From a phage: a DNA stretch of 64,000 nucleotides. The stretch lies in the sequence record PZ379176.1; one strand, 5' to 3'. Below the pieces are notes generated by a model, which saw only the letters and a list, made by a program, of their open reading frames with translations, had not been told where the DNA came from and did no database searches. Shown here piece after piece: positions 237-30,760 of the stretch. The position numbers and the translations under genes were made by a program. The stretch's first letter is position 1; every line of letters begins with the position of its first letter.

Positions 237-312
237 GCGCTCTTAGCTCAATGGATAGAGCAGTAGCCTTCTAAGCTATTGGTTACAGGTTCGAGTCCTG
301 TAGGGCGCACCA
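237..312 (+). tRNA. tRNA-Arg (anticodon UCU)
   Basis: Hand-folded cloverleaf: acceptor GCGCTCT/AGGGCGC (one G-U), D-arm GCTC/GAGC, anticodon stem GTAGC/GCTAT with loop CTTCTAA (anticodon TCT), T-arm ACAGG-TTCGAGT-CCTGT, discriminator A and encoded CCA at 310-312. Confidence 0.9.
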
Positions 313-1591: not shown

Positions 1592-1722
1592 TGACTGAAG
1601 AATTTTTAAAGTGGTTTGGTGATACCTTCAAAGAGTATCTATTCTCTCCAGAAGACTTTGAAGAACTGAAAACCTACACTTGGTTGGCTTGGAGAGATAG
1701 CCGACGAGAGATGAATAAGTAA
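1591..1722 (+). CDS. hypothetical small protein (43 aa)
   Basis: ATG overlapping upstream stop (TAATG); in-frame to TAA 1720-1722. Confidence 0.3.
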   Translation: MTEEFLKWFGDTFKEYLFSPEDFEELKTYTWLAWRDSRREMNK

Positions 1723-2255
1723 TATCGTGAAGGATTCTTACGAGAGTCCTTTGAGATAGGACTTCAGATCTCCTATCAAACTAACATTCATGTAACTAGC
1801 CCATAAGGGCGTTACCCTTTAATAACCCAGCCCACTAAGGGGGCGGGAGTTTAGTGCTGGATTAGCATAACGCTTATTCCTACAAAGGCAACCGATTGTT
1901 AGGTCTTACATGCAATATTAATTAATAGGATAAGGGAGGATTCGTCCCCTCCCCTATTCATAAACTATTAGGAGAGTACATTAGCTGATTAGCTGTGGAA
2001 GGTAGGCCGATATCTACAGCGTGGCCCAGAGCTAGTGTACTCCCCAATAACTTTAGGGTAAATGTGGAACAACCTTTTAATTACAGGTATAGCTTATGGG
2101 ACTCAGTAATGCAGAGTCTACGGTAAAGCAGTCGCCCGTGGTCGAATGACCGTATGCCCATTGGATGCATTCCTTTGGTGATGGCTAGGGAGTCCGAGCG
2201 TAGGTTCGAATCCTACACCTGTAACCAAATTGAATAATAGCTAATTGGAGGATGT
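1723..2255 (+). ncRNA. 530-bp ORF-free structured region ending in a tRNA-like 3' end (T-arm GTAGG-TTCGAAT-CCTAC, acceptor ACCTGTA, discriminator A, CCA at 2225-2227); candidate unusual or interrupted tRNA, or other structured RNA
   Basis: No ORF of 60 aa or more; perfect 7-nt acceptor complement TACAGGT at 2082-2088; hairpins at 1755-1777 and 1933-1952; no canonical cloverleaf found by hand. Confidence 0.3.
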
Positions 2256-19433: not shown

Positions 19434-19505
19434 TTGGTAGTAGATATGATAACTCTCAAATGTATATAGAGTACAATAAGAATTTGTATTTTACAGGAGA
19501 GAGTT

Positions 19506-22832: not shown

Positions 22833-23566
22833 GTCGTCGTCAATCACGGAAAGAATCACGGAAAGACCTTCGTCGGGAAGCACTTGTTACTCGTAAAGGT
22901 AAGCGAGAGTATGAAGAGGTGGTTTTAGCAAAGCCTGTAGTCCCTCAGAACCAGTTTCAGTCTGAGCTACTCAATGCTATTAAGACTAAACAAGTTGTGT
23001 TCACAGACGCTCCTGCGGGCTGTGGTAAGACCTTTGTAATCACTTCCACAGTTATTGATGCACTGAAGAGCGGTAAGATTCAGAAGATCATTCTGAGTCG
23101 CCCTTCGGTTGGCATGGGCAACTCTCTTGGGTTACTTCCGGGAGGAATGCGTGAGAAGTTTGAACCATACCTGATGCCTATCATTGATGTTATTACTCAG
23201 CGATATGGTAAGGGATTCTATGAATGCCAAATCGGAAATGGTAACATTGAGTTTGTACCTCTGGAATATCTCCGTGGTCGTTCTTTCAATGATGCTATTG
23301 TTATTGTTGATGAGTTCCAGAACACAACTAAGGATGAAGCCTTCTCCATCATGACTCGATTGGGAGAAACCTCTCAATTGTTCTGTATGGGTGATACAAA
23401 CCAGCATGATATGCGTGGTCGCGAGAGTGGTCTAACTTGGGCTACTAACTTTATTGATGAACACGATCTGTATGAGTTTGCTGAGATTGTAGATGGTGAA
23501 TCAGATGATATTGTTCGTTCTGGTTTCTGTAAGGCGATTGTTAAAGCAATGGAAAAGAAAGCTTAA
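22829..23566 (+). CDS. PhoH-like ATPase
   Basis: Walker A APAGCGKT, Walker B IVIVDEFQN. Confidence 0.7.
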   Translation: MSRRQSRKESRKDLRREALVTRKGKREYEEVVLAKPVVPQNQFQSELLNAIKTKQVVFTDAPAGCGKTFVITSTVIDALKSGKIQKIILSRPSVGMGNSLGLLPGGMREKFEPYLMPIIDVITQRYGKGFYECQIGNGNIEFVPLEYLRGRSFNDAIVIVDEFQNTTKDEAFSIMTRLGETSQLFCMGDTNQHDMRGRESGLTWATNFIDEHDLYEFAEIVDGESDDIVRSGFCKAIVKAMEKKA

Positions 23567-29437: not shown

Positions 29438-29597
29438 CTCTGAGAAAAAGAAGATCTCAGTATTTAAAGAACCTGTAGTTTATAAAGACTCTATCAGAGA
29501 TCAATATAATGAGATGTTAAAGAAACAAGCTGATTCTAATCTTCGTTATCAGAGGATAATAGAACAAACTAACTTTAAAGGTTTACTTGAATGGTAA

Positions 29598-30013
29598 CTT
29601 ATATCCTTTACTTTTTAGCTTTCTTAGGAATAATCTTTTTATCTATTATTCTTGAATTTGGTTTAAGTAGGTTAGTTAATTATTTAGGTAATAAGTAATT
29701 AATATTCTTTTAAATAGAGAATCAAAGTCCCTAGGAGTCCCTACAACCTAAATCAAGGATTCCTTAATTCTCTATTTTTATCTCGCAGGTGGCTCCTGCC
29801 CTTCGGTACTTGCAAGGGATTCTGTGAATTGCCCAATATACAAGCCTGCAATAACTTTATCAGCTATACAATATATACATTACTAGTGTGTTATATCTAC
29901 TACCAAAGATACTTATATTATATAGTACTCTTATCGGTATAAGCGTAATGTATACTATACATAACCGCTCAAAGAGAGCAACAATCTTTCAAATTAAATA
30001 AGGAAATTAAAAT
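29598..30013 (+). promoter_or_regulatory. 416-bp AT-rich ORF-poor region upstream of the SSB-like gene with inverted and direct repeats and TAATGTATA motif copies on both strands; candidate promoter hub and/or replication origin
   Basis: AAATAGAGAAT (29712-29722) / ATTCTCTATTT (29767-29777) inverted repeat flanking two GTCCCTA direct repeats; TAATGTATA at 29946-29954 (+) and 29874-29882 (- strand reading). Confidence 0.45.
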
Positions 30014-30760
30014 ATGTCTATGATTCCAACTATCGCAACTGCTTCCCGTAAATCCAACTACGATGTAATCCCTGATGGTGAATACGAAGCACGTATCGTT
30101 CGTGTAGTAGGTTTGGGTGTTCACAATCGTGACCCTTGGATTGACCCGAAGACCAAAGCAGTAACTCCTAAGAATCCGGCTTTCCGTATGGATTTAGCTT
30201 TCGAGCTGATTGGTGTTGATGCTACTGGTAAAGATTCCGATGGTAAGGCATTAGAACCACGTCCAGCTTGCCAGTTCAAGAGCTATGATGTAAACCCACG
30301 AGCTAAGAACTCTGGTATTCTTGATCTTTGCAAAATGATTGACCCAAGTATTCAAGCACTGAAAGGTGATCTGTCTTGGTTCAAGGATGTTCTGTTAGGT
30401 CAGCCTGTTAACATTCTGGTTAACTCTTATACTAACAAATCTGGTGAAGTTAAAAACTCCATCAAGACCATTTCTCCAATCCCAACCAAATATCGTGCAG
30501 CAGTTGGTGAAGCTCGTAGTCCTCTGGTATTCTTCGAACCGTATGCTGAAACCGATGAGAACGTAGCATCCTATCAACTGATGTTCCCGTTCCAGCGCAA
30601 CCTGCTTACTCAAGCTAATGACGCTAAGAACATGCCTCTGGCTGGTCGTGAAATTACTCGTGCTTCTGAAACAGAGCAGAAAGAAGCTACTCCTTCAATC
30701 CCTACGATTGATAAAGAGCCTGCTTCTACTTACGAAGACGACAACGATAGCCCATTCTAA
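30014..30760 (+). CDS. single-stranded DNA-binding protein-like (T7 gp2.5-type), acidic C-terminal tail ending DDNDSPF
   Basis: Strong RBS AAGGAAATTAAAAT-ATG; acidic tail with terminal aromatic residue as in SSBs; followed by strong terminator. Confidence 0.5.
   Translation: MSMIPTIATASRKSNYDVIPDGEYEARIVRVVGLGVHNRDPWIDPKTKAVTPKNPAFRMDLAFELIGVDATGKDSDGKALEPRPACQFKSYDVNPRAKNSGILDLCKMIDPSIQALKGDLSWFKDVLLGQPVNILVNSYTNKSGEVKNSIKTISPIPTKYRAAVGEARSPLVFFEPYAETDENVASYQLMFPFQRNLLTQANDAKNMPLAGREITRASETEQKEATPSIPTIDKEPASTYEDDNDSPF

What the first reader, a model, noticed from the sequence alone, without database searches (positions are those of the whole stretch)
29598..30013. AT-rich 416-bp non-coding region with nested inverted and direct repeats, upstream of the SSB-like gene
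This is the largest ORF-free AT-rich stretch in the window. It contains an 11-bp inverted repeat (29712-29722 / 29767-29777) enclosing two GTCCCTA direct repeats, a CCCTT...AAGGG hairpin (around 29800-29819) and TAATGTATA copies in both orientations. This architecture fits a replication origin and/or a divergent regulatory region.
Basis: seen in the sequence. Interest (0 to 1): 0.5.

Follow-up and report, generated by a model that had tools for sequence, protein, structure and literature searches.

The report
Divergent phage promoters and candidate RNA
This AT-rich spacer in a phiEco32-like coliphage holds the known phage-sigma promoter of gene 40, and also a second, strongly conserved and apparently unreported promoter facing the opposite way that should make a roughly 160-base non-coding RNA; nothing here shows it is a replication origin.

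Summary
The window is a phiEco32-like Kuravirus (98-99.9% identical to known phages). However, 29591-29698 is the annotated 35-codon gene 41, so the non-coding stretch is about 315 bp (29699-30013). It is the AT-richest locus in the window but not the largest ORF-free gap.

TAATGTATA is the published recognition element of the phage sigma factor gp36. The + copy (29946-29954) is the experimentally defined middle promoter P40. The - copy (29874-29882) is not among the six published promoters. It carries the same 14-nt -35 box (TTGGTAGTAGATAT), at the same spacing, as promoter P68, whose -37G and -34A contacts were shown by cryo-EM. This pair is kept at fixed spacing across a variable spacer in 28 relatives.

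The leftward promoter should start at 29867 and give a roughly 160-nt RNA with no ORF. That RNA has a 5' stem-loop with compensatory changes. It covers a 100-bp block (29706-29805) that is 96-97% conserved, against about 75% at gp40 third codon positions.

"Divergent regulatory region" is supported. "Origin" remains untested, and GC skew gives it no support.

The parts
29591..29698 (+). Gene 41 homologue: a 35-aa hydrophobic peptide ORF (MVTYILYFLAFLGIIFLSIILEFGLSRLVNYLGNK). Its start overlaps the stop of the upstream gene (ATGGTAA). It is dispensable: an intact 108-nt ORF is found in 13 of 28 relatives and it is cleanly absent in several others.
   Evidence: (phrog_24970, 8e-24)
29712..29777 (.). 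As + strand RNA it has an 11-bp outer stem plus an 8-bp inner stem AGGAGUCC/GGAUUCCU. As - strand RNA it has a 16-bp outer stem with 2-3 G.U pairs. It encloses the two AGTCCCTA repeats (29726-29743) and the palindrome AAGGA-T-TCCTT.
   Evidence: (pairwise identity 0.97)
29775..29781 (+). T-run TTTTTAT immediately after the hairpin, on the + strand only. Together with the hairpin it is the probable intrinsic terminator of the upstream (gene 58-41) operon. It is unchanged in all relatives examined except L015 (phage 101114BS3), which has one T fewer.
   Evidence: no equivalent U-run on the - strand
29785..29799 (.). GCAGG-TGGCT-CCTGC hairpin. The stem is invariant and the loop varies (G/T). It lies beyond the + strand terminator but inside the predicted leftward RNA.
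29806..29848 (-). Variable middle domain of the predicted leftward RNA. It comes in two unrelated alleles among relatives. The short allele, as here, includes the CCCTT..AAGGG hairpin at 29799-29818. The long allele is 69 nt and has a CTCTCA..TGAGAG hairpin.
   Evidence: (identity 0.725)
29852..29866 (-). 5'-terminal stem-loop of the predicted leftward RNA (+2 to +16; UAGCU-GAUAA-AGUUA). It shows compensatory base changes among relatives. Its G.U pair would be an A.C mismatch on the + strand.
   Evidence: (97.8% paired; 2 of 5 pairs covary; 0/500 shuffles reach the covariation score)
29706..29867 (-). Predicted non-coding leftward transcript of about 160 nt. The TSS is inferred at 29867. The 3' end is inferred at or after the long hairpin.
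   Evidence: (no conserved ORF); inference
29874..29882 (-). TAATGTATA: the -10-type gp36 element of the leftward promoter. The -11G is at 29878.
   Evidence: 27 of 28 relatives keep AATGTA
29893..29906 (-). TTGGTAGTAGATAT: the -35 box of the leftward promoter. It is identical, at identical spacing, to the -35 region of promoter P68 (window 19434-19447). GGTA occupies -37 to -34.
   Evidence: (joint pattern: 2 hits against 0.005 expected); PMC12276001
29946..29954 (+). TAATGTATA: the -10-type element of the known gp36-dependent middle promoter P40. The TSS is inferred at 29961.
   Evidence: SU10 table lists aagcgtaatgtatactatacataaccgctcaaagagagcaa
29961..30013 (+). 53-nt leader of gene 40, with a conserved GCUC-AAAGA-GAGC stem-loop (29967-29979) and a Shine-Dalgarno sequence AAGGA (30000-30004).
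30014..30760 (+). Gene 40 homologue (248 aa), the 'SSB-like' gene. Its function is unverified here.

Best explanation
The region is the regulatory spacer between the gene 58-41 middle operon and gene 40 of a phiEco32-like Kuravirus. Reading left to right it contains:
1. An optional 35-codon ORF, gene 41.
2. A strongly conserved long hairpin followed by a T-run on the + strand. This most likely terminates rightward transcription from the upstream operon.
3. A transcription unit that points leftward, against all neighbouring genes.
4. The known gp36-dependent promoter P40, with a 53-nt leader for gene 40.

The leftward unit is driven by a promoter made of TTGGTAGTAGATAT, 10 nt of spacer, then TAATGTATA. 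This is the same -35 and -10 arrangement as the structurally characterised middle promoter P68. It should therefore be used by host RNA polymerase carrying the phage sigma factor gp36 (helped by gp79) in the middle of infection.

The predicted product starts at 29867. It begins with a short protective stem-loop and carries a variable middle domain. It ends with the invariant GCAGG hairpin, an A-rich linker and the long hairpin. That makes about 160 nt here and about 190 nt in relatives with the long allele. It has no ORF.

What is shown:
- the sequence elements themselves;
- their identity to published promoter elements;
- their conservation pattern;
- covariation in the 5' stem.

What is inferred:
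- that the leftward promoter fires;
- where the RNA ends;
- what the RNA does.

My preferred function is a small regulatory or antisense RNA gene that shares a hairpin with the upstream operon's terminator, comparable to lambda oop. It would be complementary to any read-through transcript entering gene 40 from upstream, and it would insulate P40.
For: Identity of the phage and of P40:
- The region is 98-99.9% identical to phiEco32 and its relatives.
- tAATGTAtA is the gp36 element. Promoters upstream of genes 6, 13, 26, 40, 58 and 68 were determined experimentally (PMC4331800; PMC8948821).
- The P40 sequence listed for phage SU10 matches window 29941-29981 exactly.

Leftward promoter:
- It has an exact -10 element.
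- Its 14-nt -35 box is identical to that of P68 and in the same register.
- GGTAGTA-N13-17-AATGTA occurs only at P68 and here, against 0.005 expected.
- Cryo-EM and mutagenesis show that gp36 contacts -37G and -34A of P68. These bases are the G and the A of GGTA in both promoters.
- In 28 relatives both boxes and the 15-nt distance are kept while the spacer diverges. Identity is 0.93-0.96 for the -35 box and 0.44 for the spacer.

RNA:
- No ORF is conserved, and close relatives differ by 1-nt indels.
- In the 5' stem-loop 97.8% of cells are paired. It shows UA->GC and CG->AU/UA compensatory changes, and 0 of 500 shuffles reach the observed covariation score.
- The G.U pairs (8 of 18 distinct sequences in the 5' stem; 2-3 in the long stem) are A.C mismatches on the other strand.
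- The consensus fold is -39.0 kcal/mol on the - strand against -29.3 on the + strand.
- Block 29706-29805 is 0.96-0.97 identical, against 0.75 at gp40 codon position 3 and 0.95 at position 2. This conservation extends past the + strand T-run, where a terminator alone would not explain it.

Genome context:
- Other gp36 promoters in this compact genome (P58, P68, P26) abut the preceding gene with no spacer. The extra roughly 250 bp here therefore needs its own explanation.
Against: - There is no expression data. The six published promoters do not include this one, and the primary paper (Pavlova 2012) could not be read to see whether the leftward direction was ever probed.
- The long hairpin lacks a U-run on the - strand (UAUUUAAAAG), so the 3' end of the RNA is uncertain and it may run antisense into genes 41/42.
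- Module A is almost invariant, so its stems cannot be tested by covariation.
- Single substitutions in the inner part of the hairpin point both ways. Those in Bas88 (L021) and L027 fit the + strand fold; those in XT32 (L016) and L030 fit the - strand fold.
- One metagenomic relative (L026) has -11G->A in the leftward promoter.
- There is no Rfam match, and no outstanding trans target among phage translation-start regions.
Confidence: 0.6

Rival explanations
1. Transcription-primed replication origin of the T7 primary-origin or T4 oriF/ori34 type. The leftward gp36 promoter would make an untranslated RNA that invades the AT-rich DNA just downstream (29629-29728) and primes or activates leading-strand synthesis.
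For: - A phage-specific, middle-class promoter points away from any gene.
- The lowest-GC 100 bp of the whole window lie 140-240 nt downstream of its predicted start.
- The locus sits inside the middle gene block that carries the DNA polymerase, the exonuclease and an SSB-like gene.
- The strong conservation could equally reflect protein-binding DNA.
Against: - GC skew shows no inflection or local minimum at 29.8 kb. The only turn is a maximum at about 35 kb, where gene orientation flips.
- There are only two 8-bp direct repeats, not an iteron array.
- The AT-rich segment is largely gene 41, which is deleted in many relatives, leaving only about 45 bp.
- A leftward leading strand would run head-on into early and middle transcription.
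- G.U asymmetry and covariation point to selection on an RNA structure rather than on duplex DNA.
- No origin is reported for this phage group in the searched literature.
Confidence: 0.17
2. The leftward promoter-like sequence is silent or incidental. The conserved block would then act only on rightward transcripts or as DNA: as the terminator of the upstream operon, as an RNase III-type processing hairpin like those between T7 genes, or as a binding site for a phage or host protein that controls P40.
For: - A canonical T-run is present only on the + strand and is unchanged in all relatives examined but one, which has one T fewer.
- The hairpin always lies 10-40 nt after the last upstream stop codon, whichever gene that is.
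- The two-stem hairpin with an internal loop resembles T7 RNase III sites (own knowledge).
- One relative carries a -11G->A change in the leftward element.
- The Bas88 (L021) substitution preserves the + strand inner stem.
Against: - It does not explain the exact P68-type -35 box kept at fixed spacing across a divergent spacer in 28 genomes.
- It does not explain the covarying stem-loop placed exactly at +2 to +16 of the leftward start.
- It does not explain the conservation of 29784-29805 downstream of the terminator.
- In relatives with a 130-bp insertion, the -35 box stays with the leftward -10 element and moves away from P40. It is therefore not an upstream element of P40.
Confidence: 0.2
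3. A type I toxin-antitoxin-like pair. Gene 41 would encode a small hydrophobic toxin-like peptide, and the convergent leftward RNA would be its antisense regulator, sharing a bidirectional terminator as in Enterococcus par RNA I/RNA II or Bacillus txpA/RatA.
For: - A 35-aa hydrophobic peptide gene converges on a small non-coding RNA, with a shared hairpin and a pair of direct repeats.
- In L002/L026 a different 25-aa hydrophobic ORF occupies the same place and ends inside the hairpin.
Against: - Gene 41 is missing from many relatives that keep the hairpin, the conserved block and the leftward promoter unchanged.
- Gene 41 is translationally coupled within an operon and has no promoter of its own.
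- In the window the RNA does not overlap the ORF unless it reads through the hairpin.
Confidence: 0.03

Closest known systems
phiEco32 gp36-dependent middle promoters P40 and P68 (Pavlova et al. 2012, as cited in PMC4331800 and PMC8948821; cryo-EM of P68 in PMC12276001)
   Same: The + strand copy is P40 itself: the region is 98% identical to phiEco32 and matches the P40 sequence listed for phage SU10 exactly. The leftward copy shares the exact -10 element. It also shares the 14-nt -35 box of P68 in the same register (-37G, -34A) and a short 5' stem-loop in the transcript.
   Different: The leftward promoter is not one of the six published promoters. It faces against the neighbouring genes and has no ORF downstream.
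Bacteriophage lambda oop RNA (own knowledge)
   Same: Both are short untranslated transcripts with their own promoter. Both run opposite to the surrounding operon, lie next to replication genes and end in a hairpin near the 3' end of the upstream gene. oop was also once proposed as a replication primer.
   Different: There is no sequence similarity. The RNA here is larger (160-190 nt against 77 nt). Its promoter is read by a phage sigma factor rather than by sigma-70 alone. Overlap with the upstream ORF is absent in this window, and the - strand lacks a clear U-tail.
T7 primary origin (promoters phi1.1A/1.1B plus an AT-rich region) and T4 oriF/ori(34) (middle promoter plus a DNA unwinding element) (own knowledge)
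   Same: A phage-specific promoter fires into AT-rich DNA, within or next to the replication gene block.
   Different: No replication data exist for this locus. Here 160 nt of highly conserved, structured sequence separate the promoter from the AT-rich DNA. Much of that AT-rich DNA is a dispensable ORF. Skew gives no support.
Enterococcus faecalis pAD1 par locus (RNA I/Fst and RNA II) and Bacillus type I toxin-antitoxin pairs (own knowledge)
   Same: Transcription of a small hydrophobic-peptide gene and of a small RNA converges on a shared hairpin, with a pair of direct repeats.
   Different: The peptide gene is frequently absent while the RNA unit is retained. The peptide gene is part of a long operon.

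Membership tests
gp36 (phiEco32 sigma) dependent promoter | Single consensus element tAATGTAtA centred near -11.5 | tested here: met
   There are exact matches at 29946-29954 (+) and 29874-29882 (-). The consensus is taken from PMC8948821, PMC4331800 and PMC12276001.
gp36 (phiEco32 sigma) dependent promoter | -35 region contacted by the gp36 C-terminal domain (-37G, -34A in P68) | tested here: met
   The leftward promoter has GGTA at -37 to -34, within a 14-nt box identical to that of P68. P40 has AGTA there, so -34A is present and -37 is an A.
gp36 (phiEco32 sigma) dependent promoter | Lies upstream of, and in the same orientation as, a middle or late gene | tested here: not met
   This is met for P40 (gene 40 starts at 30014). 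It is not met for the leftward promoter: no conserved ORF lies downstream on the - strand. This is a property of the six known examples, not a mechanistic requirement.
gp36 (phiEco32 sigma) dependent promoter | Transcription start 6-8 nt downstream of the element, shown by primer extension or by in vitro transcription with the gp36 holoenzyme | not testable with these tools
   This is reported for P40 in phiEco32, cited second-hand. No data exist for the leftward promoter, and the primary paper is not held.
Intrinsic (Rho-independent) terminator | Stable stem-loop immediately followed by a U-run | tested here: inconclusive
   On the + strand the hairpin is -18.2 kcal/mol and is followed by UUUUUAU. 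The stem is AU-rich with a 38-nt interior, so the consensus scan reports no terminator. On the - strand the hairpin is -23.5 kcal/mol, but only UAUUUAAAAG follows it.
Iteron-type replication origin | An array of three or more direct repeats of about 17-22 bp, usually next to an AT-rich region | tested here: not met
   There are only two 8-nt repeats (AGTCCCTA) 10 bp apart. No further copies occur in the window.
Transcription-primed phage origin (T7/T4 type) | A phage-specific promoter followed by an AT-rich unwinding region | tested here: met
   This is met at the level of sequence only. The predicted promoter is at 29874-29906 (-). The lowest-GC 100 bp of the window, 29629-29728, lie downstream of it.
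Transcription-primed phage origin (T7/T4 type) | Replication actually starts there (marker frequency, RNA-DNA junctions); a compositional skew turn is a weak proxy | tested here: not met
   Only the proxy could be tested. Cumulative GC skew has no minimum at 29.8 kb and its single turn is a maximum near 35 kb. The direct test is not possible with these tools.
Known RNA families (Rfam 15) and tRNA/tmRNA | A covariance-model match at or above the gathering score | tested here: not met
   The only match in the window is a tRNA at 237-309. In 29560-30060 the best E-values are 2.7-6.1, far below the gathering scores.
Type I toxin-antitoxin locus | The small hydrophobic peptide gene and its antisense RNA occur together | tested here: not met
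   The RNA unit is present in all 28 relatives. An intact gene 41 is present in only 13 and is cleanly deleted in at least 8.

The most novel reading that the evidence does not exclude
Kuraviruses carry a previously unrecognised RNA gene. It would be a seventh gp36/gp79-dependent promoter, the only one facing against the gene flow, producing an abundant middle-phase structured RNA of 160-190 nt. The invariant 3' 100 nt of this RNA would act in trans. It could be a primer or activator of replication at the adjacent AT-rich DNA, which would locate the so far unknown origin of this phage group. Alternatively it could be a protein-binding or base-pairing regulator of host takeover.
Probability: 0.3. 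Interest if true: 0.65.

Novelty: new member of a known kind. Interest (0 to 1): 0.45.

Why it matters
phiEco32 is the model for sigma replacement by a phage: gp36 together with the sigma-displacing co-activator gp79. Its promoter set has been taken to be six promoters, all driving protein genes.

A seventh promoter that is conserved in every relative examined and drives a non-coding RNA would add an RNA player to that programme. It would also be a second natural example of the full -35/-10 architecture seen in the P68 cryo-EM structure. It would explain why this compact genome keeps 250 bp of non-coding DNA more conserved than its proteins.

If the RNA turned out to prime replication, it would locate the unknown origin of Kuravirus phages, which are being developed for therapy. 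If it is only a terminator next to a silent motif, the region is ordinary.

Tried and rejected
- **Rfam.** Searches at gathering score and at permissive E-values found nothing relevant.
- **ARAGORN.** There is no tRNA or tmRNA in the region.
- **ORF scan at 20 aa.** No ORF is conserved in 29699-30013. ORFs annotated there in a few GenBank records (4E8, 101114BS3) are not conserved.
- **Self-BLAST of the spacer against the window.** The conserved block is single-copy. The only meaningful repeat is the P68 -35 box. A 21/24 match to 23210-23232 falls in the hypervariable patch and was dismissed as chance.
- **Trans-target screen.** The RNA was tested against 188 phage translation-start regions with RNAduplex. 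The best non-self energy (-40.1 kcal/mol) is no better than for shuffled RNAs (mean -42.3).
- **Scans of public collections for more divergent copies.** A metagenome scan gave only six close relatives. An IMG/VR scan gave the five relatives already held. Phages with gp40 at 67-69% identity (L007-L009) have an unrelated 140-bp upstream region.
- **Primary papers.** Pavlova 2012 and Savalia 2008 are not held. Literature searches for an origin, sRNA or antisense RNA in phiEco32, or for a Kuravirus transcriptome, found nothing.
- **gp40 as an SSB.** There is no Pfam or PDB sequence match, and the single-sequence AlphaFold model is unusable (pLDDT 36). No fold search was run.
- **Type I toxin-antitoxin reading.** Rejected because gene 41 is often absent while the RNA unit is retained.

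Full report
**What the window is.** The 801 bases around the finding are 98-99.9% identical to phiEco32-like podophages (Kuravirus, Gordonclarkvirinae), including phiEco32 itself (NC_010324 36386-37186, opposite orientation). In phiEco32 coordinates the finding lies between phi32_41 and phi32_40. It sits inside the middle-gene block that also holds the DNA polymerase (gene 53), the sigma factor gp36 (gene 36) and an exonuclease (gene 33).

**Checking the observation.**
- The 11-bp inverted repeat extends to 14 nt with one mismatch (29712-29725 / 29764-29777).
- The GTCCCTA repeats are 8-nt AGTCCCTA copies 10 bp apart.
- The locus is the AT-richest in the window. 29629-29728 has 18% GC, the lowest 100-bp value in 64 kb.

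Two statements need correcting.
- 29591-29698 is a 35-codon ORF for a hydrophobic peptide. It is annotated as phi32_41 and matches phrog_24970 at E=8e-24. The truly non-coding stretch is therefore 29699-30013, about 315 bp.
- The stretch is not the largest ORF-free gap: 1592-2255 is 664 bp.

By chance alone an 11-bp inverted repeat appears in 6% of shuffles of this region. The repeat is convincing only because of what follows.

**The TAATGTATA copies are phage promoters.**
- tAATGTAtA is the single consensus element of promoters read by E. coli RNA polymerase carrying the phiEco32 sigma factor gp36.
- Six such promoters were mapped experimentally, upstream of genes 6, 13, 26, 40, 58 and 68. 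Starts lie 6-8 nt downstream of the element (PMC4331800; PMC8948821).
- The P40 sequence listed for the close relative SU10 (aagcgtaatgtatactatacataaccgctcaaagagagcaa) is identical to window 29941-29981.
- The + copy at 29946-29954 is therefore the known middle promoter P40. Using the numbering of the cryo-EM paper (-12T, -11G), its start is about 29961, which gives gene 40 a 53-nt leader.

**The - strand copy is a second, unreported promoter.**
- The window has four exact TAATGTATA matches against 0.7 expected. Three are P58, P40 and P26. The fourth, at 29874-29882 on the - strand, faces away from gene 40.
- Its upstream sequence is TTGGTAGTAGATAT, then 10 nt, then TAATGTATA. The only other place in the window with this 14-mer is the -35 region of P68 (19434-19447), at the same distance from its AAATGTATA.
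- The joint pattern GGTAGTA-N13-17-AATGTA occurs exactly twice, against 0.005 expected.
- P68 is the promoter in the 2025 cryo-EM structure of the gp36-gp79 open complex. There the gp36 C-terminal domain reads -37G and -34A, and mutating them abolishes transcription. In my register these are the G and the A of GGTA in both promoters.
- The SU10 promoter table, the 7-11 paper and the 2015 bioinformatic paper list no promoter in this orientation and no terminator here.

**Comparative evidence.**
- I collected 27 related copies in addition to the window. Five came from IMG/VR, sixteen were chosen down the identity ranking of the 99 phage records that match, and six came from metagenomes.
- All keep TGGTAGTA(G/T)AT, exactly 15 nt, then TAATGTATA. 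One metagenomic copy has -11G->A.
- The spacer between the boxes is almost randomised. Pairwise identity is 0.44 for the spacer, 0.93-0.96 for the -35 box and 0.60 for the DNA between the two promoters. That pattern is the footprint of a working promoter.
- In relatives with a 130-bp insertion between the two promoters, the box stays with the leftward -10 element and moves away from P40. It therefore does not belong to P40.

**What the leftward promoter would transcribe.** From a start at 29867 the - strand has no conserved ORF. Close relatives differ by 1-nt indels and by a wholesale allele swap.

The first 16 nt form a 5-bp stem-loop. Among 18 distinct sequences:
- 97.8% of cells are paired;
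- two of the five pairs show compensatory double changes (UA->GC; CG->AU and UA);
- a third pair alternates G-C and G.U;
- no shuffle out of 500 reaches the covariation score, and slid controls collapse.

The G.U state would be an A.C mismatch on the + strand. The other gp36 transcripts (P68, P58, P40) also begin with a short stem-loop.

The rest of the predicted RNA is laid out as follows.
- Then a nearly invariant 100 nt (29706-29805): the GCAGG-loop-CCTGC hairpin, an A-rich linker and the long hairpin.

This block is 0.96-0.97 identical across relatives. The first 200 codons of gp40 score 0.75 at third positions and 0.95 at second positions. It is under stronger constraint than the proteins around it.

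Consensus folding favours the - strand in every sub-domain, at -39.0 against -29.3 kcal/mol overall. The long stem reaches 16 bp only as - strand RNA, through two to three G.U pairs.

**The inverted repeat itself.** On the + strand the hairpin is followed directly by TTTTTAT, which is unchanged in all relatives but one (L015, phage 101114BS3, has one T fewer). It always sits 10-40 nt after the last upstream stop codon, whether that gene is gene 41, a phosphatase gene or a different small ORF. This fits an intrinsic terminator for the upstream operon.

It is atypical, being AU-rich with a 38-nt interior, and the consensus scan misses it. On the - strand no U-run follows. Where the leftward RNA ends is therefore unknown: it may stop inefficiently, be processed, or continue antisense into genes 41/42.

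The few substitutions inside the hairpin are split in which strand's fold they favour. I cannot assign the hairpin to one strand, and dual use would help explain its invariance.

A terminator alone does not explain the conservation of 29784-29805, which lies beyond the T-run. The other gp36 promoters in this genome abut the preceding gene with no spacer. This suggests that the extra 250 bp are there because they encode something.

**Origin hypothesis.**
- For: the arrangement of a phage-specific promoter firing into the AT-richest DNA of the window resembles the T7 primary origin and T4 oriF/ori34 (own knowledge).
- Against: there are two short repeats rather than an iteron array.
- Against: cumulative GC skew has no minimum here and turns only at about 35 kb, where gene orientation flips.
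- Against: the AT-rich segment is mostly the dispensable gene 41.
- Against: the asymmetry and covariation signals point to RNA rather than duplex DNA.
- Against: the searched literature reports no origin for this group.

It remains possible at about 0.17 but is not supported.

**Other checks.**
- There are no Rfam or tRNA matches.
- The conserved block is single-copy in the window.
- No phage translation-start region stands out as a trans target.
- A type I toxin-antitoxin reading (small hydrophobic peptide gene plus convergent RNA) fails because the peptide gene is often absent while the RNA unit is retained.
- The 'SSB-like' label for gene 40 could not be verified. There is no Pfam or PDB sequence match and the single-sequence model is unusable. 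One GenBank record calls the protein an ssDNA-binding protein, and its acidic tail ending in PF is SSB-like (own knowledge).

**Verdict.** The finding is a real and compound regulatory region. Part of it is already known (P40). Part appears to be new: a conserved, P68-type gp36 promoter facing leftward, and the conserved non-coding RNA it should produce. Together these make a new member of known kinds, namely a gp36 promoter and a phage small or antisense RNA. The origin reading is not supported. The decisive experiments are simple: strand-specific RNA mapping, in vitro transcription with the gp36 holoenzyme, and marker-frequency sequencing. A public RNA-seq data set from Kuravirus-infected cells already exists but was mapped only to the host (PMC12803456).

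Noticed in passing
window 1592-2255 and 9728-10145: These two gaps free of ORFs of at least 60 aa (664 bp and 418 bp) are both longer than the 416-bp gap at the finding. Their content was not examined.
   Followed up: no
window 237-312: A tRNA-Arg (anticodon TCT) gene. It is the only Rfam or ARAGORN hit in the window.
   Followed up: no
window 19434-19466: Promoter P68 (TTGGTAGTAGATAT-N10-AAATGTATA) lies directly after the stop of the preceding ORF. P58 (23578) and P26 (39778, - strand) are squeezed in the same way. All gp36-type transcripts in the window begin with a short stem-loop.
   Followed up: partly
L024:870-1164 (also L002, L026-L030): Some relatives carry an insertion of about 130 bp between the two divergent promoters. 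It holds a 47-aa ORF whose ATG overlaps the leftward -35 box (in L002 a stop codon cuts the ORF short). It is followed by a CTACC-TTCC-GGTAG hairpin, and no promoter for it is evident.
   Followed up: partly
L002:1980-2063 and L026: In these relatives gene 41 is truncated. A different 25-aa hydrophobic ORF (MSIYKKFLVFVSICLVLDIIIIYSFK) precedes the conserved hairpin, with its stop codon inside the left arm of the hairpin.
   Followed up: no
window 29948-29962: The P40 -10 element sits in a palindrome, ATGTATA-C-TATACAT. This puts a one-mismatch copy, TTATGTATA, on the - strand at 29956-29964, overlapping the P40 start. It could be an operator, or just AT-rich symmetry.
   Followed up: no
L026:8906-8976: One metagenomic relative has TAATATATA in place of TAATGTATA (-11G->A) in the leftward promoter. 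It is the only exception among the 28 copies examined (the window and 27 relatives).
   Followed up: no
L007-L009:2330-2500: More distant relatives (gp40 67-69% identical) have an unrelated 140-bp region upstream of the gp40 homologue. It is conserved among the three and contains TAGCTT repeats and an AAGCATAT / ATATGCT inverted repeat. It is presumably the promoter region for a different sigma specificity.
   Followed up: no
window 30014-30760: gp40 has no Pfam or PDB sequence match, and its GC skew is opposite to that of its neighbours (-0.02 against about +0.17). Its C-terminus, EDDNDSPF, resembles the acidic tails of SSB proteins.
   Followed up: partly
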